Below are positions 2,569 to 42,368 of a stretch of DNA of 43,198 nt, in pieces (position 1 is the first letter of the stretch; the number at the start of each line of letters is the position of its first letter). Below the pieces are notes generated by a model. That model made no database searches and was not told the origin of the DNA. It saw nothing but the letters and a program-made list of their open reading frames with translations. The stretch is from a virus: the UHGV virus genome UHGV-1555466; one strand, 5' to 3'. Made by a program: the position numbers and the translations under genes.

Positions 2569-2765
2569 TACTGGCTGCGACATTTTTGAATAAAAGCGTC
2601 GATATTTCGGCGCTCATAACGAACTACTTTTGCACTGAAACGAATTGGTGCCAGGATAGCCCGATGACGATGCTTAATATTCCACTCACATAGCGTTTTC
2701 TGTGTAATACCTAACTTTTGGCATACTTCATCCGGGGTGAGTAAATCGTCGGGTTTCTCGCTCAT
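2565..2765 (-). CDS. AlpA/excisionase-family HTH DNA-binding protein (putative Xis)
   Basis: 66 aa; LLTPDEVCQKLGITQKTL HTH then PIRFSAKVVRYERRNIDAFI, typical of the AlpA/Xis family; last gene of the leftward operon, 4-nt overlap with the helicase. Confidence 0.65.
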   Translation of the reverse strand: MSEKPDDLLTPDEVCQKLGITQKTLCEWNIKHRHRAILAPIRFSAKVVRYERRNIDAFIQKCRSQY

Positions 2766-4156
2766 GCTATACCTCTCTTTTTCATGGCATCGAGCAGGAT
2801 GTCCTGCACTGTTCGTTTTGAGTTGCGCCGCTCCATCACCATTTCATCCATAGTGTCGGCAGCAATAATGTGGTGAATAAATACCGGACGATTGTGTCCG
2901 GCCTGTATCTGCCTGGTGGGGCCGATACGTTCAATAATTTGCTGATATTGCTCCAGGTCCCACCAGTGTGAGAAAAATACCAGTATATTTCCGCCGTCCT
3001 GCATGTTCAGGCCGTGGCCCGCGCTGGCTGGGTGTGCAAAGAGAACAGGAATCTTTCCGGAATTCCAGTCGCGCAGTGTCTGTGGATCCTGGTCGAGGTG
3101 ACGACCGCGAGGGAATGCTTTAAGCAAGCGTTCAAGATCGTGTTTCCAGTGATAAGCAACCAGCACAGGTGCGCCAGCTGCTTCGGTCAGTATGCTGTCC
3201 AGCGCCTGTAGTTTGGTGTCATGCAGTTCTGACCAACTTCCGGTGTCATCTGTGTATACTGCGCCGCTGGCGATTTGCAGACACTTCAGTGTCTTTGCCG
3301 CGGCGTTCGGTGCTTCGATGCCTTCGCCATTCAGCTCGAGGAACATTTCCTTTTCCATTTCACGATACTGCTGACGGGCCTTCGGTGGCATATCCACGCG
3401 GATTACGTTATGGATGGGGTCTTTGATATCGAACCAGTCGGCCGCATCCAGCGAGAGGGTTACATCGGCTAACGCTCGCTGTATTTCACCCTGTGAGTGA
3501 GCAAAAGGCTCCAGTTTGGTCCAGCTCTGCCCCGGAAACTGTATCGAGTTGAACCAGCGTGAGGTAAACGCGCCGTAAGTGCGCCCGAGACGTTGCCCCT
3601 GGTCCACAAACCACGATTGTCCCCACAAATCTACCAGGCCGTTCGGTGCTGGCGTACCGGTGAGATTTATCCAGCGCCGGACATACTTATGCGCCACTTT
3701 GCCCAGCGCCGCCGCGCGCTTACCACCACCGCGCAGCCGGAAGGATTTTAGCCGGGTGCTTTCATCTGGAATGACAGTACCGAACGGCCATCGTTCTCCC
3801 AATTCTTCAATCAGCCAGACAAGGTTATCGTAGTTGATGGTGAACACGCTTGCGTTGCTGTTCGTCAGCGCCATAGAGCGCGCTTTGGCATTACCAATAA
3901 TTGGCTGCACCTCGATATTGCGCAAATGTCCCCACTTCAGTGCTTCATCCGGCCATGTGCTGGCAGCCACGCGCAGCGGCGCGAGGACCAGTGCGGGGCA
4001 TGTTTCTGCCCCTGCCATAAAGAGATCTTCCAGCGCAGTGAGCGTTGCCACGGTTTTACCCATTCCCATCCCCGCCCAGATGTTGCCGCGCAGGGTTTCG
4101 GTTTCGTGGTTGATAATGAGAACTTGGTAGGGGCGAGGTATATATTTTGGGGGCAT
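2762..4156 (-). CDS. SNF2-family helicase (phage replication/recombination)
   Basis: Walker A GMGKT, DEST(DExx) box, LTGTPAPNG motif III, C-terminal helicase domain. Confidence 0.8.
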   Translation of the reverse strand: MPPKYIPRPYQVLIINHETETLRGNIWAGMGMGKTVATLTALEDLFMAGAETCPALVLAPLRVAASTWPDEALKWGHLRNIEVQPIIGNAKARSMALTNSNASVFTINYDNLVWLIEELGERWPFGTVIPDESTRLKSFRLRGGGKRAAALGKVAHKYVRRWINLTGTPAPNGLVDLWGQSWFVDQGQRLGRTYGAFTSRWFNSIQFPGQSWTKLEPFAHSQGEIQRALADVTLSLDAADWFDIKDPIHNVIRVDMPPKARQQYREMEKEMFLELNGEGIEAPNAAAKTLKCLQIASGAVYTDDTGSWSELHDTKLQALDSILTEAAGAPVLVAYHWKHDLERLLKAFPRGRHLDQDPQTLRDWNSGKIPVLFAHPASAGHGLNMQDGGNILVFFSHWWDLEQYQQIIERIGPTRQIQAGHNRPVFIHHIIAADTMDEMVMERRNSKRTVQDILLDAMKKRGIA

Positions 4157-4218
4157 ATAATATGGCTCCTAAACAACAAAAGGCCAATTTAGACCTTTTG
4201 TTGTTTTAAAAATGTTAT

Positions 4219-5136
4219 TTATAATAGTGCTGTTACTATTGCATCTTTAAAAATATTTTCTTCTTCATTTATTAAAGGTGATGACAGATGAATAATTACT
4301 TCTTTTCCTGTCAATACTATTTGCTCGACTTGAAATCCTGCGTTGTGTAGTCTTTGGCGTAACTTTTCTAGTGCTGATTTTGATATACTAAATCCTTCAC
4401 TCCTTATAGTATAACTGGCAACTCCATTTTTAATAATATCTACAGAGTTGTCAATTTCCTGCTGCGAGTAATTTTTCGGTGAGTCGAAAAATCTGGATTT
4501 TGTCGTTGCTGTTGCCCTAAGAGATATCAATAATGATTTGATATCTTTAATCTCAGATGCCAGATACTCAGTTTCTGATACTTCTTTCTGGTCTAGTTGT
4601 GCAACTTTGAAAGTGCCAAAATGTTTGAGGAATGTTGTGTATTCAGGATCAGTTACTGACTTTAAATATGTTTCTTTTATCTTGCTCGCAAGTCTTTCTT
4701 TGAATAAATTGATTGATTGGTATCTTAAATCCGAAGGGTACTCTAAATGTTCAATTGATGAAATGTCAAAGCTATAAGGAGTGCGCTCGTCCTTAATAAT
4801 TACGGTCGGTTTGTCAAATGCGAGACGCATTCCTAATTCAAACATTACATTAGCGTTTCGAGCACTTATATCGCAAACAACTATGGGGTTTTCATAAAGA
4901 TTTTGAACAATTCGTTTTTGTATTACTGCAACATCATCATCTGAACTTACCAAATTTGCCTTGAATCCGGCATCATTTGATGCTTCACAAATAATGTCAT
5001 GAACATTTCTCCAATGTCCAGTGGGATAACCTTCTATGTCCGCAATTGGCATAATAATGCCGCATATATGAGGTGGCATATTTTTGTTGTCTTTTACATC
5101 ATCTTGGTTTATTTCTTTCGTTTGTTGCTTAGCCAT
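4219..5136 (-). CDS. hypothetical protein with N-terminal TIR-like/nucleoside-deoxyribosyltransferase-like flavodoxin-fold domain; AT-rich moron
   Basis: 305 aa; motif IVVCDISARNANVMFELGMRLAFDKPTVII...EYPSD parallels the 253-aa protein at 5866-6627; strongly AT-rich versus neighbours. Confidence 0.5.
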   Translation of the reverse strand: MAKQQTKEINQDDVKDNKNMPPHICGIIMPIADIEGYPTGHWRNVHDIICEASNDAGFKANLVSSDDDVAVIQKRIVQNLYENPIVVCDISARNANVMFELGMRLAFDKPTVIIKDERTPYSFDISSIEHLEYPSDLRYQSINLFKERLASKIKETYLKSVTDPEYTTFLKHFGTFKVAQLDQKEVSETEYLASEIKDIKSLLISLRATATTKSRFFDSPKNYSQQEIDNSVDIIKNGVASYTIRSEGFSISKSALEKLRQRLHNAGFQVEQIVLTGKEVIIHLSSPLINEEENIFKDAIVTALL

Positions 5137-5151
5137 AGCTTACACAGACTC

Positions 5152-5436
5152 CTATTGTAATTTTTTGCCTAATATACATGAAAGCTCCTTACTATCCAGT
5201 ACTACCACGGTAAAGCCCAGTTTTCGCAGACGTTCATGCTCGCGCAACTGATCAGGTCGTGGTGGTTTGCCTGGTGCTTTGCATTCGACAAAGACGATGC
5301 GACCGCCGGGTAGCAGAACAATGCGATCTGGTACCGAGCGGAGACCGGGAGATACGAACTTAAAGGCAACCCCGCCAGCCTTTTTTACTTCAGCGACGAG
5401 GTGCTTTTCGATTAGGTTTTCACGTTCATAGGCCAT
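5152..5436 (-). CDS. VRR-NUC domain nuclease
   Basis: 94 aa with PD-(D/E)xK-like core (PDRIVLL...VFVECKAPGKPPRPDQ); the usual partner of phage SNF2 helicases. Confidence 0.75.
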   Translation of the reverse strand: MAYERENLIEKHLVAEVKKAGGVAFKFVSPGLRSVPDRIVLLPGGRIVFVECKAPGKPPRPDQLREHERLRKLGFTVVVLDSKELSCILGKKLQ

Positions 5437-5630
5437 TAGCTTTCGCCTTCCTGCTTTTTGCGTTTCTTCATGCAGATAGCGCAGTTCTCAGGATGGTCAT
5501 GCCATTCGTCAATCCTGATACCTGTGAACATCCATTTTCCGCATAGTGATATGGCTTCCCCCGAATTAAAGAAATGTGCTTTTTTCGACAGGGCGGGGAA
5601 CCCCCAACCTTTATTATCGATATTAGACAT
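5436..5630 (-). CDS. small hypothetical protein, possible zinc ribbon
   Basis: 64 aa, start/stop overlaps VRR-NUC; C..C...H.H...C..C spacing. Confidence 0.45.
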   Translation of the reverse strand: MSNIDNKGWGFPALSKKAHFFNSGEAISLCGKWMFTGIRIDEWHDHPENCAICMKKRKKQEGES

Positions 5631-5810
5631 CGTCCACCTCCTTACGCTTTTCGCGCATGTTCTGCATCAGACAAAAATCAAACCGACGTTCGCTTTGGCC
5701 CAGACCTGCATCGCCCGGTCGTACCCGCTGGACTGTTCAAGGCGCAAAGCCTCCCGTGCAGTCCGGTAATAAAGCGGACTGTCCCGGTATTTAAATGACA
5801 TAGGGTTTTT

Positions 5811-5841
5811 ATTCCCAAATAAAAAACCCCGCAATGCAGGG
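5811..5841 (-). terminator. intrinsic terminator after the 253-aa TIR-like gene
   Basis: Hairpin 5827-5841 followed on the minus strand by UUUUUUAUUU. Confidence 0.55.
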
Positions 5842-5865
5842 TTGTAATCAACAATAAGGGGGTAA

Positions 5866-6627
5866 TTACGAGGAAGCGTTAGCTATTTGAGCTTGTGTAA
5901 ATTCGAAACCAGAATTTTGTAACCGTTGCACTAGACGAGGAACTGTTTCACGTACATGGTCGTTGAAATTCAGATACAAAATCCCGTTAGCATCAGAAGG
6001 CTGTTCTAGGTGCTGTTTCTGAAGGATTGCTACATTGCTGCGCCCTAAGGACGAAAGAAGCATACCCATCTCGAGTACAACGTTCTGTCTTGCGCGGGGT
6101 TGGATTTCTGCTTCACCGGCGCGCTTTGAGTATCCCATATCATCAGGTGTCAAAAGAACAATCCCGAAACGAGTAGCAGTTTGTCCTTGCCCAATTTCAC
6201 GTTCAAGCTCTTCAATAATGGTGAGTCCAGTCCCTCCCGTATTCTGCAAAATGAAATGGTCTGGTAATCCAAGTTTATGAAGGATTAGCTCAAGTTGTTC
6301 CTTTGCAGTATGGTCATGGCCGTGAACAATGAATATCTTTTTGGGAAGCTCAGATGGCTGTTCTACGGCTAGTGGTGTTGCCGTGGGGGGCGTTCCTAAA
6401 TGGGACATTATTGCAGTTTCAACATTGGGACGTTCTTGAGGGTTCCCTTGAAACTGAATGGTCCGGGTGGTGTAAAGGTTAACAATTACGCCATTCGTTA
6501 AACGATAGCAGTCATAAGTCTCACGCTGTTCGTGGGAAAAATTGGTGAACCCACACTCCCTCAAAAAGTCAGGAAAAGATTCTCTCGGGTATGGATAGTT
6601 GATCGGCATTTCAGTTAGTTCCTGCAT
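5866..6627 (-). CDS. TIR-like domain protein (COG4271/PF10137-like C-terminal domain, unknown N-terminal domain)
   Basis: 253 aa; KKIFIVHGHD...FGIVLLTPDD...RARQNVVLEMGMLLSSLGRSNVAIL...EQPSD; own terminator downstream. Confidence 0.55.
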   Translation of the reverse strand: MQELTEMPINYPYPRESFPDFLRECGFTNFSHEQRETYDCYRLTNGVIVNLYTTRTIQFQGNPQERPNVETAIMSHLGTPPTATPLAVEQPSELPKKIFIVHGHDHTAKEQLELILHKLGLPDHFILQNTGGTGLTIIEELEREIGQGQTATRFGIVLLTPDDMGYSKRAGEAEIQPRARQNVVLEMGMLLSSLGRSNVAILQKQHLEQPSDANGILYLNFNDHVRETVPRLVQRLQNSGFEFTQAQIANASS

Positions 6628-6691
6628 AAGTATTGTTCCTTTAATTTACTCGAATTCAGCATGTCGCCATAGCTCGATAAGGTGAGTTATA

Positions 6692-8755
6692 TCAATCTTT
6701 TTTGTAGTGGTACGCCTCAAAGCCGCCAGCGTTCAGCGGAATATCGGGTGCCCATTCGGGGTTAGTGGAGAGAAGCGCGGAAAGCGCTTTATCGTTGAAA
6801 TCTTCTGTGTCTGGTGCTTCGGTGATCACCTCGTCGTGTACCGTTAGCACAATGCTGTAACCGGCACCCTCGATCAGCGGCATGTTTCTGGCTAGAACGT
6901 CGCGGGCGGCCGCCTGGGTGACGTTCTCCACCAGCTTTCCGCCGTAGGTTTTGAGTCGTTGCCATTTACGCGAATAAGAGTTAACACCCATGTAGGTGAT
7001 ATTCCCTTGTTCGATAACCGGAGACGGGTAGCATACAGCGCGTCCGGATGGTAGCTGTATGCGCAGCCACGCGCCATCACGTCGGATTTTAAGATAGCCG
7101 CAATACAATGTTTTTTGCGGTGTGGCGATTGCTGTGCGGACAGTGCGCTCCAGCTCGTACCAGAAATCGCAGGTCGCCGGGTGCGCCCTGCGCCACAGGC
7201 GCTTGAGCGAGTCACATGCGATGAATACACGCTCGGACAGGCCAAAGGTCGACTTACGCTTAACCGATTCGTCGTACCAGCTTTTTGCCTCGCGGATAAC
7301 ATCGCGGGGAATGTTTGGCAGTGCGGCGTTCGCCAGCTCGTCGAGATCGAGACCGTAAACCAGAGCAAAAGTGATGAAAGCCGATACACCACCTCCATAA
7401 CCCAGACCGAGTTCCATGACTTTACCGATCTGACGCATGTGTTTATCAACATCATCTGGTGCAATATCGAAAGCTTTTGCATACGCCAGTTTATATAAGT
7501 CCGGACCCGTTCCAGCGTCATACTCTCTGAATGCATTCAGTTTCCATTCTTCTCCCGCCAGCCATGCCAGCATACGGCCTTCAATGTTTGACAAGTCACT
7601 TACCACTAGTTTTTTGCCTGTTGGCGCGATAATGCAGCCACGTAACGCTGAACTGGTTAGTTCCATGATATTGTCAAACAGCAGGTCTGCACATCCGGCT
7701 TTCAGTGCTTCGATGCCTTCGTCTATTTGTTCCTGTTTTAGTGAAGGGCGGGGAAGGTTCTGGGGCTGGAATAGCCGTCCGGCCCAACGACCGGTACGTG
7801 ACGCCCCGCAGAACTGTAGCGTACCGCGTAAGCGCCCGTCGTGGCTTACGCCTTTCATCAGTGCCTTGTATTTACTGGTGCTGGTAGTACTGGCTTGCAG
7901 GCGGATAGCCAGCAGTTCTTTCACGGCAGATGATAAATCGGGGTCGGCCATACGACGTTCCAGGGTACTGCGTTGCATGTCTGGTAGCTCCACACCGTAG
8001 GATTCAACGATGTGCTTAATCAACGCGTCCCGTTGTGTGGCTGCCTGCACTTCGCCATCAGTCATTTCCTGTGTACGCTTTGCCAGGCGCTTTTGCTCCT
8101 GGTCTACCGCTTCGATCGCAGCGCGCGCGAGTTGCATGTCCATGCAGACGCCCCGGTCGTTGATCTGCTGATCACGATGCCAGAGCGCCAGCTCTGTCCC
8201 CTGATAATTCCACTTCGGCAGACGTTTATAGACTTCACGCATTGCTTCGATATCCAGTCCGGCGTAAGCAACAAAGCGCCGCCATTCTTCCGGATGGGTT
8301 TTACTGGTGGCCCGACGCAGTTTGCTGTTTTTCGGACGTGGCTTACAGAACAGCTGGATCAGCGCTTTACCTTCTTTGTCCTTCGCTTTGTCTTGCGGGA
8401 CGCCTAGTACTTCGCAGAGTTCCCCCAGAGACCCCGGGAGACCGTGCGCCAGCGCCTGCACCATCGTGTCGCGCCAACGTTCGACTGGCGGTGCCAGTCG
8501 CGGCATTGCATAACGCAGAACGGTGCGGTCGAAGTGAGAGTTATGGAAATAAAGCAGGGTTTCAGGGTCTGCGATTGCTTCGTATAAGCCGTGTGGAATA
8601 CCACCACCGGCAGTGATATCCCACACGTTTACTGGCCCGTCGTTGATAGCCCATGCGAAAAGCATCACTTCAACGCCTTCGGCATACGCATGGGTACCGT
8701 TCGTAATAGGGATTTCGCAATAGGTTTCCAGGTCGCCCCATAGTATATTGGACAT
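6692..8755 (-). CDS. family A DNA polymerase with N-terminal 3'-5' exonuclease domain
   Basis: 687 aa; motif A DLSNIEGR, motif [13 protein letters not shown], motif C VHDEV. Confidence 0.85.
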
Positions 8756-8801: not shown

Positions 8802-9431
8802 ATGCATATGATCCAATACTTGATTGACCATACAGAGCATCTGGAGAAAATAGCTGGATATATTTTTTCATGTTTGATTGTTATGGGAGTCTGGATAAGA
8901 AAGATCATTTTTAATTATAAGTATAAAGAGCCTAAATATGTCAAGAAGTTAATTTTATATTTAATTAAGTATGAACGTTATCTGGATAAGGAGGATAAGA
9001 AAGCCATAGAAAAAAGAATAAATGATAAAATTATTCGTGATGCGCTGAAATTGCAATCCTCTTATAACCGAAGAGATGTTATTTACATTTGCAATAGATT
9101 AGAAAAAAGACAGTATATAAATCAGTTGATTAAGCTTCAGAATTATATAGAGAAAGATAACGGAGTGTTTTTTATTAATGTTGATTTTTCAGGTTTTTTA
9201 TTTATTATTAGTCGTCTGTTTTCCTTTCTGTGTTTTGTGCTGTTTACCCTTTTTTCTATTATCTGCATTATTTCCATAGGGCAAAATGAAGGCCTTTTAA
9301 ATTATCTTGTGTATATGGTTATGATAATAGTTTTAGAGACTGTTGGTTTTTGGATGTATGATACTTTCCCGTCTAAGAAAAAGATCTGTGAACTAAATAA
9401 AGAATTGAGAAAGATTAAGATTCCTGAGTGA
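8802..9431 (+). CDS. hypothetical membrane protein (AT-rich moron, antisense to replication operon)
   Basis: 209 aa, very AT-rich; N-terminal hydrophobic segment and C-terminal transmembrane cluster flanking a Lys/Glu-rich region. Confidence 0.6.
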   Translation: MHMIQYLIDHTEHLEKIAGYIFSCLIVMGVWIRKIIFNYKYKEPKYVKKLILYLIKYERYLDKEDKKAIEKRINDKIIRDALKLQSSYNRRDVIYICNRLEKRQYINQLIKLQNYIEKDNGVFFINVDFSGFLFIISRLFSFLCFVLFTLFSIICIISIGQNEGLLNYLVYMVMIIVLETVGFWMYDTFPSKKKICELNKELRKIKIPE

Positions 9432-11351: not shown

Positions 11352-12254
11352 TTAACCCTCCAGTGCTTTTTCAGCCAGGGTGATTACTTCAGCGAGATTT
11401 TCATCCGTTACTTCACCAAGTTTCCTGGCTCCCTGTTTTTCCAGAATTGCAATAGCTTCTGCCCGGTAACCCCCTTTTGCTAACTGGAGGATCAACCCTT
11501 CAGCTTGTTTGCGTAGTGCCGCGAAATCAATTGTATGGTCATCTTTGGCGTCATTATTCTGGCTGGAATTTGCTGTGTCTCTGCGTGCAAATTCTTCCTG
11601 CAGCTGAAGGTACTCAACACGGTTGGTCTCGATATGGCCTTTTTTCAGCATCTCGTTCAACTTGCGTAAGGTGTGGAGTTCACTGGCTGCTGTGCCGGAT
11701 ACATTTTTGACGTAAAACGGCCCCGTGCGTTCTCCATCTTTGTTACTGGCCTTTTTCGGCTTAACTTCATCACGCCCATCCGCAGGTGCATCAAGTAGCT
11801 GCTCGGCAAAAGCACGTCGCTCGCCGATGGTTGGCAGGTCGTCCCAGAACTTAAGGATGTTACGGGACAGGTCCAGGAGAGCAGGTTTAAGCAGCGCCCT
11901 GGCTCGTTTGACGCCCTGCAATGCGCTGTCGAGAGCATCAATCTGAACTACTCGTTTATCGCCTTCAGCATCACGGTAGGCAACAGCACGTTGCAGCATG
12001 TCTTCTGTGATAGGGGTGGCTACTGGGTAGAAACCAGCCAGTGCGATAACGTCGCTGAACTCCAGATCATCCAGTGTCATTGCCGCTGACATATTTTCAG
12101 TTTCAGTTGCTGTATCCCGACATTCCTGCACTCGTGAAATCGTGTCAGGATGCATAACAATACCTGATGCCATTGTGCGGATAAGACGTTCAAGCAGCGC
12201 ATTATGTTGTGCCAGAAGTTGATTATTAAGTTCGAGACTGGTTTCTAAACTCAT
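11352..12254 (-). CDS. hypothetical phage early protein
   Basis: 300-aa ORF in operon; ATGA overlap with upstream small ORF. Confidence 0.6.
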
Positions 12255-12400
12255 ACTGTGGTCCTCGCTACAAGGAGAATGAAAGTGATGATCAGACCGA
12301 GCGCAGTGGCAACGGCCAGACCGGTCATCAAATCGAAGTTTTTACGGCGATAACGGAGAACATCGCGCCCCGTCAGTCGATAGAGGTGTTCAGGTTTCAT
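12251..12400 (-). CDS. small hydrophobic peptide (49 aa), first gene of the leftward operon
   Basis: [49 protein letters not shown] read from the minus strand; AGGA about 10 nt upstream; stop overlaps next ATG. Confidence 0.35.
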   Translation of the reverse strand: MKPEHLYRLTGRDVLRYRRKNFDLMTGLAVATALGLIITFILLVARTTV

Positions 12401-12460
12401 CGGTTGTATTCCTTTTTTCATATCGGGGAGCGCGCTGTTGCGAGTGCGCTTTCAGACATA

Positions 12461-12485
12461 AAAAAGCCCGTCATTTGCGGCGGGC
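12461..12485 (-). terminator. intrinsic terminator-like hairpin upstream of the leftward operon
   Basis: gcccg(12466-12470)/cgggc(12481-12485) followed on the minus strand by UUUUUUAU. Confidence 0.4.
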
Positions 12486-12624
12486 AAAGACTACACACAG
12501 CAATTACATGGATATCATCGAGTGCCTGCTTTTAACCACATCAGGCGAGGTGGTTCTCCTTGTACCCCTACAGTGAGAAATCGTCTAATATCTCTTCACC
12601 CCTACAGTTTGAGAGAGATTAGAT

Positions 12625-13194
12625 ATGTCTGAAGAAAAAGGAATTCTTTCCCGGATAACTGAATCGTTATCCGGCGTGGGAGGAGCAATTAAAGGCGCGG
12701 TTGGAGCAGCAAGAGAGATTCAGAATCTGACTGTCGACTATGCAGTTAAAGAGAAGACGCACACCTTACTCGATAAGCTAATGGATGTTCAGATGCAGCA
12801 AATGTCGCTTCAGGAGCTGCTGATTGCGGCTAAGGAGAAAATTGTTGAACTGGAAAATGAGAAAGTAAAGCAAGAGAACTGGGCCGCTGAAGCGGCGAGC
12901 TATGAACTTTACCAGCCTATGCGGGGTACTCTGGTCTATCGCAGCAAGCTTTCTGCAGATACTGACCAATCTCCGGTTTATATTTGTCCCAATTGCTACG
13001 AGCAAAAGAGAAAATCTATATTGCAAGCGGAAGGTCTGGTTATTAAGCCAGGCCTTGGGCGAGCCGTTAATATGGTTTGTTCGCACTGTAGGGCTTCCTA
13101 TCTGTTCAACCGAAATGCTTTAGAGGCCAGACTGCCTGCTGAAGATGAAAATCCGGGGAAGGCAATCACGGATTACGATCCTTACAACCAGTAA
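12625..13194 (+). CDS. hypothetical protein, coiled-coil plus C-terminal zinc ribbon (immunity-region moron)
   Basis: 189 aa; heptad-rich middle, CPNC...CSHC; GAGAG RBS; own downstream hairpin. Confidence 0.6.
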   Translation: MSEEKGILSRITESLSGVGGAIKGAVGAAREIQNLTVDYAVKEKTHTLLDKLMDVQMQQMSLQELLIAAKEKIVELENEKVKQENWAAEAASYELYQPMRGTLVYRSKLSADTDQSPVYICPNCYEQKRKSILQAEGLVIKPGLGRAVNMVCSHCRASYLFNRNALEARLPAEDENPGKAITDYDPYNQ

Positions 13195-41522: not shown

Positions 41523-42368
41523 CTATTGGCGAAGTGGCCATATTTTTCTGTTTTTTAAAAAACTATCTTCAACTATATAACTGCAACAATGTTCACTAAG
41601 GCCATAAAAACTAATTATTCCATATTTATGAGAAGCTATATCAGACAGTTCTGCTAATACTGTGGCAAGCCAACGAGCGATGCTAAGAGAATAGAATCTT
41701 CCCCACTTTTGAACAATGGTATTTTGTCCAGTACGGATGGAGGCTGATATAAGGTCTTGCATAATGTTGGTACTTTCATTCATATACATGACCGTTGTAT
41801 ACGGTGAAAGAGTGGCATTGATAAACCTAGCATTTTCTTCAACACGTCTTTGTTCAACTGTATAATAATAATGTTTTTCAAGGATACTCTCGGCTACTTC
41901 TCCCCACCATTTATTAATAGGTTCATTATTGGTTAAATTGGGGCTGCTTAATGAGGAGAAATTTGCGTAACGTCCCCGTCGGGCATCAGCAAAGGAATCT
42001 AAACATTCAAGTATTTTGTAGGTAATTTTATGTGTAGGACGTGAATATCTCAGAGATAGTTGCATTTTTTTAGAAATACTATCAACCTCGTTGGTTAATT
42101 CAATGAGCTTATGTCCAAATTTTCTTACAATATTCTCATCAGGCATTTTCCCTTTGTGTTCAATGGCATAGTGTGCAACAAGTATTAGTTTAGCAAGTCT
42201 CTCAAAACCTACAGAAAGCCCAAAAAATGCTGTGTAATATTCACCTATTTTGTCTGCATAATTGGCTTTACCTATGGCTGTTGCCCCAGAACCAATGAGC
42301 TGTGTAACTAAAGATGCTTCTCGGCCCAGAGCGTGCCATGCTGGAATATCCCAGGGATTTTTATTCAC
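41523..42368 (-). CDS. hypothetical protein (AT-rich cargo gene)
   Basis: 281-aa ORF, AT-rich; no family recognised by eye. Confidence 0.55.
   Translation of the reverse strand: MNKNPWDIPAWHALGREASLVTQLIGSGATAIGKANYADKIGEYYTAFFGLSVGFERLAKLILVAHYAIEHKGKMPDENIVRKFGHKLIELTNEVDSISKKMQLSLRYSRPTHKITYKILECLDSFADARRGRYANFSSLSSPNLTNNEPINKWWGEVAESILEKHYYYTVEQRRVEENARFINATLSPYTTVMYMNESTNIMQDLISASIRTGQNTIVQKWGRFYSLSIARWLATVLAELSDIASHKYGIISFYGLSEHCCSYIVEDSFLKNRKIWPLRQ

What the first reader, a model, noticed from the sequence alone, without database searches (positions are those of the whole stretch)
4219..6627. Two different TIR-like-domain proteins inserted in the prophage replication operon
The 305-aa protein (4219-5136, domain at the N-terminus) and the 253-aa protein (5866-6627, domain at the C-terminus) share a block: ...CDISARNANVMFELGMRLAFDKPTVII...EYPSD versus ...RARQNVVLEMGMLLSSLGRSNVAIL...EQPSD, each preceded by a hydrophobic strand plus acidic turn (ICGIIMPIAD; KKIFIVHGHD). 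This resembles the flavodoxin-fold TIR-like family found in CBASS/Pycsar/Thoeris-type effectors that degrade NAD+ or nucleotides. Each is fused to a different unrecognised partner domain. The first is sharply AT-rich; the second has its own terminator (5811-5841). They sit among VRR-NUC, a small Zn-ribbon ORF, the SNF2 helicase and PolA, not in a known defence layout. Candidate phage-borne abortive-infection or counter-defence effectors.
Basis: partly seen in the sequence, partly recalled or inferred. Interest (0 to 1): 0.8.

Follow-up and report, generated by a model that had tools for sequence, protein, structure and literature searches.

The report
Two defence-type cargo genes in prophage
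An E. coli prophage carries two separately acquired single-gene cassettes inside its replication operon: one is an already catalogued TIR-domain defence candidate, and the other belongs to a very large unannotated family with a conserved TIR/NDT-like enzyme domain and a hypervariable tail, sitting exactly where related prophages carry the proven defence gene BstA.

Summary
Both ORFs exist on the minus strand, share the NV..E.G…HLE.PSD block, and are discrete insertions in a conserved replication operon of an E. coli prophage integrated between yfhL and yfhH.

- **Accessory distribution:** among 5,426 complete E. coli genomes, the polymerase gene is in 159, gene B in 37 and gene A in 24.
- **Gene B (253 aa):** it is a clear member of Pfam PF10137, the Cap12/PycTIR-type TIR (E 3e-31). 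It matches PADLOC candidate PDC-S35 over its full length (E 1e-108). Its N-terminal domain weakly resembles the RnlA/LsoA repeat domain. RefSeq already annotates it as a TIR protein, so it is catalogued, though only as an untested candidate.
- **Gene A (305 aa):** this is the more interesting gene.
  - It has no Pfam, NCBIfam or PADLOC family of its own, yet it has 9,370 cluster representatives at E ≤ 1e-3.
  - Its N-domain is only remotely TIR/NDT-like, with a near-invariant Glu100.
  - Its C-terminal ~100 residues are essentially unalignable between relatives.
  - It occupies the slot that holds BstA in related prophages, and homologues are single-gene cargo in other prophages, an integron array and an integrative element.

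The best reading is two independent abortive-infection-type effectors. Their activity, triggers and expression are inferred, not shown.

The parts
4219..5136 (-). Gene A, 305 aa: a member of a very large unannotated family with a conserved TIR/NDT-like N-domain and a hypervariable C-terminal region
   Evidence: The ORF is. The family has 4,466 homologues and 9,370 50%-cluster representatives at E<=1e-3, of which 1,398 are at E<=1e-30. No Pfam or NCBIfam family reaches its cutoff.
4651..5070 (-). Gene A N-domain (aa 23-162): a five-strand flavodoxin-like alpha/beta domain with the motif CDIS.RN.NVMFELG.R.A.DKP and a near-invariant Glu100
4225..4446 (-). Gene A C-terminal domain (aa 231-304): predicted beta-beta-alpha-beta-beta-alpha fold at pLDDT about 90, hypervariable across the family; proposed sensor or specificity module
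   Evidence: The model is. Only 14 of 6,903 pairs of representatives have alignable C-terminal regions, against 7,260 of 7,260 for the N-domain. Identity to A is 6-7% in this region.
4162..5188 (-). Cassette A: the variable segment between the SNF2 helicase start and the VRR-NUC 3' end, which holds different cargo in relatives
   Evidence: Homology to five related prophages stops at about 4120-4161 and resumes at 5189.
4171..4206 (-). Strong hairpin immediately 3' of gene A, inside the cassette and just upstream of the SNF2 ribosome-binding site; a possible terminator or RNA-stabilising element
   Evidence: It is a 13-nt perfect inverted repeat. It folds at -20.8 kcal/mol, z -5.1. The scan does not call it a canonical terminator.
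5866..6627 (-). Gene B, 253 aa: RnlA/LsoA-NRD-like N-domain, linker, then a Cap12/PycTIR-type TIR domain; PADLOC candidate PDC-S35
   Evidence: PF10137 scores E 2.9e-31. PDLC05003 PDC-S35 scores E 1.2e-108 over the full length. phrog_16442 scores E 7.5e-107. RefSeq names it 'TIR domain-containing protein'.
5962..6339 (-). Gene B TIR domain (aa 97-222) with invariant Glu186 in the motif RQNVVLEMG and the motif E.PSD
   Evidence: The Pfam match is. Sequence matches to solved Cap12 (7un8, 9lmq) and PycTIR (8jsj) are. Foldseek's top hits are Cap12 at probability 1.0.
6400..6606 (-). Gene B N-terminal domain (aa 8-76): alpha-beta4-alpha fold at pLDDT about 90 with the motif GT.Q.QG; proposed sensor
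   Evidence: The model is. Pfam RnlA_toxin matches 6/52 members (best 8.5e-4) and DUF3378 matches 3/52. The family profile against LsoA residues 106-197 gives E 0.14. Foldseek also lists RNase H3 4py5.
5805..6703 (-). Cassette B: a segment absent from relatives in which the ANR regulator gene abuts PolA
   Evidence: The blastn boundaries against L005 and L006 are.
5825..5843 (-). Intrinsic-terminator-like hairpin plus U tract, 3' of gene B and inside cassette B
5623..5801 (-). Frameshifted remnant of the ANR-family regulator gene next to the B insertion; the gene is intact in the relatives examined that lack B
   Evidence: RefSeq annotates a pseudogene and an intact gene. One search shows the interrupted homology.
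2762..4156 (-). Core SNF2-family helicase, flanking the A slot
5152..5436 (-). Core VRR-NUC nuclease, flanking the A slot; its last 12 codons lie inside the variable segment
6692..8755 (-). Core family-A DNA polymerase, flanking the B slot

Best explanation
The two genes are independent single-gene cargo cassettes (morons) carried in two variable slots of the leftward early replication operon of a temperate E. coli myovirus-type prophage. Most likely each one protects the lysogen against other phages by abortive infection.

**Gene B.** A small N-terminal RnlA/LsoA-NRD-like domain is proposed to sense an infection cue. A Cap12/PycTIR-type TIR domain is proposed to oligomerise and hydrolyse NAD+ through Glu186. 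B needs no cyclic-nucleotide synthase partner.

**Gene A.** A strongly conserved TIR/NDT-like N-glycosidase-type domain, with catalytic candidate Glu100, is proposed as the effector. Its substrate would be NAD+ or a nucleotide. The hypervariable C-terminal domain, joined by a helical linker, is proposed to set trigger specificity.

**Shown:** domain assignments, cassette boundaries, accessory distribution, hotspot context, and the conservation pattern.
**Inferred:** enzymatic activity, substrates, triggers, expression in the lysogen, and the anti-phage phenotype.
For: **Accessory distribution.**
- The PolA gene is in 159 of 5,426 complete E. coli genomes, B in 37 and A in 24.
- One copy of A is disrupted by IS1.

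**Discrete cassettes.**
- Cassette A spans 4162-5188 and cassette B spans 5805-6703.
- Each carries its own 3' hairpin.
- Their base composition is foreign to the flanks.

**The slots are defence hotspots.**
- The A slot holds BstA (PADLOC E 3e-110) plus a Dcm methylase in 15 genomes. Elsewhere it holds DUF6338, Rha/Arc genes or other cargo.
- The neighbouring PolA|SSB slot holds a SIR2-family gene in one relative.
- A 71%-identical allele of B sits in the same post-PolA slot of a related prophage.

**Gene B.**
- It matches PF10137 at E 2.9e-31 and PDC-S35 at E 1.2e-108.
- Solved Cap12 structures are its best fold matches.
- Glu186 is invariant in 52 of 52 family members.
- Homologues lie in islands beside an RT, DUF4062 and ParDE modules, and on an integrase-bearing island beside an SMC-like ATPase.

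**Gene A.**
- All 58 members tested hit a CBASS TIR effector model.
- Glu100 and its surrounding motif are at least 95% conserved from enterobacteria to Streptococcus, Latilactobacillus and Dorea phages.
- Homologues are stand-alone cargo in a lambdoid nin region, in a Vibrio parahaemolyticus integron-like cassette array that also holds a BstA_C cassette, and in a small integrative element.
- In Gram-positive temperate phages they sit in the lysogeny module, in the orientation of integrase and repressor.
- The N-domain is alignable in every pair of representatives, while the C-region is alignable in 0.2% of pairs. This is the pattern expected of a constant effector with a diversifying sensor.
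Against: - No experiment exists for either family. PDC-S35 is only a candidate, and no paper was found.
- Both genes lie on the strand of the early lytic operon.
- A has only 15 nt of upstream intergenic sequence, and promoter-like sites are no more frequent than chance (11 found, 9.1 expected). Expression from the repressed prophage is therefore unproven.
- A's TIR/NDT assignment is below every curated threshold, and its fold matches generic flavodoxin-like domains about as well.
- The 150 representatives used for the conservation contrast are the best-scoring of 9,370, which inflates the apparent N-domain conservation.
- Both models have only moderate confidence, with mean pLDDT of 74.
Confidence: 0.6

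Rival explanations
1. One or both genes serve the phage as counter-defence or host-takeover enzymes. They would be expressed early in the lytic cycle with the replication genes, for example to destroy host immune signalling nucleotides or to reshape NAD+ or nucleotide pools.
For: - Both genes are co-oriented with the early leftward operon.
- A starts 15 nt after the VRR-NUC stop, and no convincing promoter of its own was found.
- Klebsiella homologues of A lie in the early nin region, in the early orientation.
Against: - B carries its own terminator, which would break an early operon.
- B homologues sit in chromosomal defence-type islands with no phage around them.
- A homologues are integron cassettes and lysogeny-module genes oriented with the repressor.
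- Both are rare in sequenced phage genomes: A-family matches occur in 20 of 50,697 records and B-family matches in 4.
- A hypervariable tail is unusual for an enzyme that attacks a conserved small molecule.
Confidence: 0.13
2. Gene A is a nucleotide-metabolism or DNA-modification enzyme of the NDT/DNPH1/MilB type that serves phage DNA synthesis, not immunity.
For: - NDT PF05014 is the most frequent weak Pfam match, in 33 of 58 members.
- MilB, DNPH1 and NDT structures are among the fold hits.
- Relatives carry other nucleotide-modification genes at nearby positions: DUF4406, Nmad5, Dcm and a SAM methyltransferase.
Against: - A is present in only 24 of 159 related prophages, and it is replaced by BstA or unrelated genes.
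- It occurs as a lone integron cassette and in non-phage islands.
- A metabolic enzyme would not be expected to carry a tail that is unalignable between close relatives.
- No NDT model reaches its threshold.
Confidence: 0.08
3. The genes are selfish toxin or addiction-type cargo, or they act against plasmids or other mobile elements. They would give no specific anti-phage phenotype.
For: - Both are single genes with likely toxic effector domains on mobile elements.
- They sit next to toxin-antitoxin modules in one island.
- One copy of A is inactivated by IS1, which suggests a fitness cost.
Against: - No cognate antitoxin or immunity gene is conserved beside either family.
- Sharing a slot with BstA and SIR2 points to phage defence.
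Confidence: 0.09
4. Gene A's N-domain is a non-catalytic flavodoxin/receiver-like scaffold, and its resemblance to TIR/NDT domains is convergent or superficial. The protein would then work as a regulator or adaptor.
For: - Foldseek's best PDB hits are lysine-decarboxylase wing and response-regulator receiver domains.
- The profile-profile match to the B family has only 48% probability.
Against: - No receiver-domain HMM match was found, and the acidic pair expected on strand 1 of a receiver is absent.
- The only sequence models that match are TIR and NDT, and they do so consistently across the family.
- The matched block contains the catalytic-Glu motif and the PSD motif characteristic of PF10137.
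Confidence: 0.1

Closest known systems
PADLOC candidate system PDC-S35 (single-gene, PF10137 TIR)
   Same: Gene B matches model PDLC05003 end to end at E 1.2e-108, and matches the other four PDC-S35 models through the TIR domain. It has the same single-gene architecture.
   Different: PDC-S35 is a computational candidate, and no experimental paper was found. Here the gene sits inside a prophage replication operon. Gene A does not match PDC-S35.
Cap12 (TIR-STING) and PycTIR effectors of CBASS and Pycsar
   Same: - B shares the PF10137 TIR domain, the R.NVV.E.G catalytic-Glu motif and the P[ST]D motif.
   Different: - Neither A nor B has a STING, SAVED or cyclic-nucleotide-binding sensor domain.
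- No CD-NTase or pyrimidine cyclase is encoded anywhere in the prophage.
- NCBIfam Cap12 equivalog scores are 31-35 bits against a cutoff of 450.
- The sensor domains differ: RnlA/LsoA-like in B, hypervariable in A.
BstA, a prophage-encoded abortive-infection protein
   Same: - BstA occupies exactly the SNF2|VRR-NUC slot in related prophages.
- It is also a single-gene prophage cargo.
- A BstA_C cassette shares a Vibrio integron-like array with an A homologue.
   Different: There is no sequence relationship: A has no PADLOC BstA hit. BstA is an HTH/DNA-binding protein, not a TIR-like enzyme.
Nucleoside 2-deoxyribosyltransferase superfamily (NDT, DNPH1/Rcl, MilB; PF05014)
   Same: A's N-domain gives weak PF05014 matches in 33 of 58 family members. 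It also gives fold matches to MilB, DNPH1 and NDTs, with a Glu at the equivalent position after strand 3.
   Different: All scores are below the gathering threshold (13 bits against 28.8). A carries an extra helical linker and a hypervariable C-terminal domain. Its distribution is that of mobile cargo, not of a metabolic gene.
RnlA/LsoA HEPN toxins and the RNase HIII N-terminal domain
   Same: B's N-terminal alpha-beta4-alpha domain weakly matches the RnlA_toxin and DUF3378 Pfam models, and the LsoA repeat domain.
   Different: B has no HEPN RNase domain. The matches are weak: best E 8.5e-4 in 6 of 52 members, and E 0.14 against LsoA.

Membership tests
Pfam PF10137 CAP12-PCTIR_TIR (STIR clan) | HMM score at or above the gathering cutoff (24.7 bits): gene B | tested here: met
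   B scores 108.4 bits at E 2.9e-31, covering profile positions 1-118 of 119. All 52 family members tested match.
Pfam PF10137 CAP12-PCTIR_TIR (STIR clan) | HMM score at or above the gathering cutoff (24.7 bits): gene A | tested here: not met
   A scores 16.2 bits at E 0.011 with a partial match. Only 12 of 58 family members match, best E 0.011.
Pfam PF10137 CAP12-PCTIR_TIR (STIR clan) | Conserved Glu in the N-V-x-x-E-x-G motif after strand 3, plus the downstream P-[ST]-D motif | tested here: met
   In B, E186 and P210-S211-D212 are invariant in 52 sequences. In A, E100 is at least 95% conserved in 155 sequences, P134 is invariant and D136 is 90-95% conserved.
Pfam PF10137 CAP12-PCTIR_TIR (STIR clan) | TIR/flavodoxin-like fold closest to solved Cap12 or PycTIR structures | tested here: inconclusive
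Pfam PF10137 CAP12-PCTIR_TIR (STIR clan) | NAD+ hydrolase activity on activation | not testable with these tools
   This needs biochemistry.
PADLOC PDC-S35 | Full-length match to a PDC-S35 model, as a stand-alone gene | tested here: met
   B matches PDLC05003 at E 1.2e-108, aa 10-253 on profile positions 3-245 of 245. A has no match.
PADLOC PDC-S35 | Demonstrated anti-phage activity | not testable with these tools
   It is a candidate system only, and no paper holds the term.
CBASS / Pycsar / Thoeris systems | A partner signal-producing or signal-sensing gene (CD-NTase, PycC cyclase, ThsA/ThsB pair) beside the effector, and a nucleotide-sensing domain in the effector | tested here: not met
   No such gene is among the neighbours or anywhere in the prophage annotation. 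NCBIfam Cap12 scores are 31-35 bits against a cutoff of 450. No STING, SAVED or cNMP-binding domain was found.
Nucleoside 2-deoxyribosyltransferase PF05014 | HMM score at or above the gathering cutoff (28.8 bits): gene A | tested here: not met
   A scores 13.2 bits at E 0.1. The best E among 58 relatives is 0.0037.
RnlA/LsoA toxin family | HEPN RNase (Dmd-binding) domain plus NTD/NRD repeats | tested here: not met
   Only a weak match to the repeat domain was found. B has no HEPN domain.
Prophage moron / defence-hotspot cargo | Patchy presence among otherwise collinear relatives, sharp boundaries, foreign composition, and alternative cargo (including known defence genes) at the same site | tested here: met
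Prophage moron / defence-hotspot cargo | Own promoter, giving expression from the repressed prophage | tested here: inconclusive
   Promoter-like sites are no more frequent than chance. One 9/12 match at 5198-5171 lies upstream of A, and none was called upstream of B.

The most novel reading that the evidence does not exclude
Gene A may represent a widespread, undescribed family of single-protein immune sensors. The family has 9,370 50%-cluster representatives at E<=1e-3 and no Pfam, NCBIfam or PADLOC family of its own. In this reading, a nearly invariant TIR/NDT-like N-glycosidase effector is joined, at a fixed junction near residue 200, to a freely exchangeable and hypervariable C-terminal recognition module. 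Specificity for different phage triggers would then arise by tail swapping. The genes travel as minimal cassettes through prophage hotspots, integrons and islands in both Gram-negative and Gram-positive hosts.
Probability: 0.3. Interest if true: 0.75.

Novelty: new variant of a known kind. Interest (0 to 1): 0.5.

Why it matters
If gene A protects against phages, it would add a very abundant, minimal (about 300 aa) single-gene system to the known defence repertoire. Its natural library of hundreds of unrelated C-terminal modules on one constant enzymatic domain would make a convenient system for studying how immune specificity is generated and exchanged.

Gene B would give experimental footing to PADLOC candidate PDC-S35. 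It would also show a Cap12-type TIR working without a cyclic-nucleotide signal, triggered instead through an RnlA/LsoA-like domain.

The locus also shows that this E. coli prophage family carries three cargo slots interleaved with essential replication genes. These slots hold BstA, SIR2, TIR and unknown genes, which makes them a useful place to look for further systems.

Tried and rejected
- **Thoeris-like pair.** I considered A and B working together. B occurs without A in at least 10 listed genomes, and A-family genes occur alone elsewhere, so I rejected this.
- **CBASS or Pycsar effector role.** No cyclase is present and neither protein has a sensing domain, so I rejected this.
- **Receiver-domain reading of A.** No receiver HMM matches, and the acidic pocket is missing.
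- **PDB sequence searches for A.** Both the single sequence and the family profile gave nothing.
- **Foldseek against PDB for A.** It returned only generic flavodoxin-like hits and said nothing useful about the C-terminal domain.
- **AlphaFold database library.** It was unavailable.
- **Other effectors fused to B's N-domain.** The search with the 85-aa N-domain alone returned only two fragments. That search was wasted.
- **Literature searches.** Searches for PDC-S35, PF10137 or COG4271 in a prophage context, the WP accessions, and the three phage names gave nothing specific. The integron-defence and DefensePredictor papers do not mention a TIR or NDT-like cassette of this kind in their main text.
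- **Promoter scan.** It was no better than chance.


Full report
**What the window is.** The 43-kb window is a complete temperate-phage genome integrated in E. coli between yfhL and yfhH.
- It is identical to a region of strain WP3-W18-ESBL-08 and about 20 other complete genomes.
- It is also identical to three deposited phage records: vB_EcoM-689R2, -611R5 and -606R2.
- An integrase gene (plus strand) sits at the left end.
- A leftward early operon on the minus strand follows. It runs DUF2800 nuclease, Enc34-type SSB, PolA, gene B, an ANR-regulator remnant, a 64-aa ORF, VRR-NUC, gene A, SNF2 helicase and an HTH_17 protein.
- Beyond that lie a CI-like S24 repressor, a primase-helicase, a Q antiterminator, and the lysis and myovirus structural genes.

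**Check of the observation.**
- The two ORFs are at the stated coordinates.
- Gene A is AT-rich, with GC 0.31-0.37 against about 0.55 in the flanks.
- A canonical terminator-like hairpin with a U tract follows gene B at 5825-5843.
- The shared block is recovered objectively. BLASTP aligns NVMFELGMRLA…EHLEYPSD with NVVLEMGMLLS…QHLEQPSD at E 0.042.
- A profile-profile comparison of alignments of the two families aligns the same 33 columns at E 1.9e-4, probability 48%. Nothing else in the two proteins is detectably similar.

**Both genes are insertions, not core genes.**
- By megablast against 5,426 complete E. coli genomes, the polymerase gene is in 159 genomes, gene B in 37 and gene A in 24. 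All hits are chromosomal and single-copy.
- Pairwise comparison with five related prophages places sharp boundaries.
- Homology stops at the start of the SNF2 gene (about 4120-4161) and resumes at 5189, inside the last codons of VRR-NUC. That defines cassette A, about 1 kb.
- In relatives that lack B, the ANR regulator gene abuts PolA directly. Window positions 5805-6703 (cassette B, about 0.9 kb) have no counterpart there.
- Cassette B brings its terminator with it.
- Cassette A brings a 15-bp-stem hairpin (-20.8 kcal/mol, z -5.1) that ends at the SNF2 ribosome-binding site.
- In every B-carrying relative examined, the ANR gene is a frameshifted pseudogene. It is intact in those without B.

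**The slots are cargo hotspots that hold known defence genes.**
- SNF2|VRR-NUC slot (gene A's slot): it holds gene A here.
  - In O103:H2 12009, ETEC H10407 and EC20017429 it holds a 309-aa protein that is a full-length BstA (PADLOC E 3.2e-110) plus a Dcm methylase. That arrangement is in 15 genomes.
  - Elsewhere it holds DUF6338 plus a small ORF, a Rha/Arc set, a 265-aa unknown, or a small unknown with Dcm.
- Post-PolA slot (gene B's slot): it holds B, a 71%-identical 246-aa B allele, an Ant antirepressor, a small ORF, or nothing.
- PolA|SSB slot: it holds an AT-rich, opposite-strand membrane-protein ORF in this window. It holds a SIR2-family gene in strain 21KM1392 and an unknown plus Nmad5 in others.
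That criterion is clearly not met.

**Gene B.**
- Residues 97-222 match Pfam PF10137 (CAP12/Pycsar effector TIR) at 108 bits, E 2.9e-31.
- The whole protein matches PADLOC PDC-S35 model PDLC05003 at E 1.2e-108 and phrog_16442 at E 7.5e-107.
- The only solved relatives by sequence are Cap12 (7un8, 9lmq) and PycTIR (8jsj).
- The AlphaFold model (pLDDT 74) finds the same Cap12 structures first, at probability 1.0.
- Glu186 in RQNVVLEMG and the PSD motif are invariant in 52 relatives.
- The N-terminal domain (aa 8-76, alpha-beta4-alpha, pLDDT about 90) carries a conserved GT.Q.QG motif.
  - It gives weak but convergent matches to RnlA_toxin (6 of 52 members, best 8.5e-4; PF15935 is precomputed for one relative).
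  - It also matches DUF3378, the RNase HIII N-domain (3 of 52), and the LsoA repeat domain (E 0.14).
- NCBIfam Cap12 equivalogs score 31-35 bits against a cutoff of 450, and there is no cyclase or STING/SAVED/cNMP domain. B is therefore a stand-alone TIR protein, not a CBASS or Pycsar effector.
- Homologues lie in a Vreelandella island beside DUF4062, a reverse transcriptase and two ParDE pairs. Others lie on a Vibrio cholerae integrase island beside an SMC-like ATPase.
- RefSeq already calls B a 'TIR domain-containing protein'.
- I found no paper on PDC-S35 or on these accessions.

**Gene A.**
- No Pfam, NCBIfam or PDB sequence match reaches significance. It matches two function-unknown PHROGs.
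- The family is nevertheless very large. There are 4,466 homologues in the 90%-clustered collection. There are 9,370 representatives at E ≤ 1e-3, and 1,398 at E ≤ 1e-30, among 1.84 billion 50%-cluster representatives.
- The model (pLDDT 74) has three parts: a five-strand flavodoxin-like N-domain (aa 23-162), a long helix (188-209), and a compact beta-beta-alpha-beta-beta-alpha C-domain (231-304, pLDDT about 90).
- The case for a TIR/NDT-like N-domain is consistent but sub-threshold.
  - PADLOC's CBASS 'Effector TIR' model PDLC00733 matches A at E 1.1e-6 and matches all 58 relatives tested, best 1e-8.
  - PF05014 (NDT) matches 33 of 58 and PF10137 matches 12 of 58. Neither reaches its cutoff.
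  - Foldseek ranks lysine-decarboxylase wing and receiver domains above DNPH1 and NDT.
- What singles out TIR/NDT is the motif: CDIS.RN.NV[ML][FY]ELG.R.A.DKP followed by FD and YP.D.
  - Glu100 is at the position of the catalytic Glu of Cap12-type TIRs and the nucleophile Glu of NDTs. That equivalence rests on established knowledge of those families and was not tested here.
  - Glu100 and the flanking residues are at least 95% conserved in 155 sequences, including homologues from Streptococcus, Latilactobacillus and Dorea phages.

**The hypervariable tail of A.**
- Among 121 representatives, the 155-residue N-domain is alignable in all 7,260 pairs, with median identity 61%.
- The region beyond the linker (median 102 residues) is alignable at E < 1e-3 in only 14 of 6,903 pairs. 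It falls into 106 single-linkage clusters out of 118.
- Mean identity to A is about 0.7 for residues 61-140 and about 0.07 for residues 211-305.
- Caveat: these are the best-scoring 150 of 9,370 hits, so N-domain conservation is overstated. The contrast within the same proteins still stands.

**Contexts of A homologues.** They are always single genes without a conserved partner.
- Klebsiella lambdoid prophages carry one in the nin region, between replication genes and Q.
- Vibrio parahaemolyticus carries one in an integron-like one-gene-per-cassette array that also holds a BstA_C cassette.
- Pseudomonas carries one at the edge of a small integrase/Arc element.
- Aeromonas carries an isolated copy.
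- In Streptococcus phage Javan306 and Latilactobacillus phage TMW 1.46 P1, the gene lies in the lysogeny module. It shares the orientation of integrase and repressor and faces the antirepressor and replication genes. From general knowledge of these phages, that is the classical place for superinfection-exclusion or Abi genes.
- Only 20 of 50,697 phage records carry an A-family gene, and 4 carry a B-family gene. All are temperate or prophage-derived.

**Interpretation.**
- The best-supported reading is two independent, stand-alone cargo genes that most likely protect the lysogen by abortive infection.
- Each pairs a TIR-type N-glycosidase effector with its own recognition module.
- I put about 0.6 on this, higher for B than for A.
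- Enzymatic activity, substrate, trigger and expression in the lysogen are all inferred.

**Main weaknesses.**
- Both genes are co-oriented with the early lytic operon.
- A has only a 15-nt upstream spacer.
- The promoter scan was no better than chance.
- For these reasons a counter-defence or host-takeover role cannot be excluded.
- A nucleotide-metabolism role for A is made less likely by its patchy, replaceable distribution and its variable tail.

**Novelty.**
- B is an already catalogued candidate in an ordinary setting.
- A is an unannotated, very abundant family with an unusual constant-effector and variable-tail architecture, sitting in the slot where related prophages carry BstA. It is a good, cheap experimental lead rather than a conceptual surprise.
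- Overall I rate this a new variant of a known kind, interest about 0.5.

Noticed in passing
window 8802-9431 (+): A third cargo slot lies between PolA and the SSB gene. Here it holds a very AT-rich ORF (GC 0.27-0.30) on the opposite strand. The ORF is 209 aa with hydrophobic segments. It matches phrog_10579 (unknown function) and has no Pfam or PADLOC hit. In strain 21KM1392 the same slot holds a SIR2-family gene. In other relatives it holds a 229-aa unknown plus an Nmad5 nucleotide-modification gene.
   Followed up: partly
window 5623-5801 (-): The ANR-family regulator gene is a frameshifted pseudogene in every B-carrying relative examined. It is intact in the relatives without B. The insertion of cassette B may therefore have coincided with loss of this regulator.
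   Followed up: partly
window 5436-5630 (-): The 64-aa ORF (phrog_2358; one CxxC plus one more Cys) occupies a position that varies among relatives. Some carry a DUF4406 gene there, itself an NDT-like family. One carries a class I SAM methyltransferase. This is a fourth variable position in the operon.
   Followed up: partly
NZ_AP045179.1 1259624-1261318 (hit H35), equivalent to window 4219-5136: Gene A is interrupted by an IS1 element in strain JNEC-KY203. This shows that the gene is dispensable, and it may carry a cost.
   Followed up: no
window 12625-13194 (+): A 189-aa ORF with two CxxC pairs (CPNC…CSHC) lies on the opposite strand between the leftward operon and the CI-like repressor. It has no Pfam or PADLOC hit, and relatives carry a different-sized gene there (525 against 570 nt). 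It may be another moron.
   Followed up: partly
window 41523-42368 (-): A 281-aa ORF with no Pfam or PADLOC hit lies at the extreme right end of the prophage. It sits beyond a truncated recombinase (tail-fibre invertase remnant) and next to the host yfhH gene, which is a typical position for lysogenic-conversion cargo.
   Followed up: partly
gene A aa 253-272 (window 4321-4380) against gene B aa 226-245 (window 5893-5952): A second short similarity lies outside the catalytic block: KSALEKLRQRLHNAGFQVEQ against RETVPRLVQRLQNSGFEFTQ. It is 40% identical over 20 residues, with E 0.01 for the single comparison. It is probably chance.
   Followed up: no
L021 / L022 (Vibrio parahaemolyticus contigs), A homologue at 7001-7822, BstA_C gene at 11681-12553: The array is integron-like: many co-oriented single-gene cassettes are separated by tiny ORFs. 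It holds both an A-family gene and a BstA_C-domain gene. These are the same two cargo types that alternate in the E. coli prophage slot.
   Followed up: no
L005 9797-10438, L036 8797-9438, L037 8458-9096; L005 5203-6216: Related prophages carry Nmad5, DUF4406, Dcm and SAM-methyltransferase genes interleaved with the replication genes. This suggests that some members of this phage family modify their DNA. None of these genes is present in the window.
   Followed up: no
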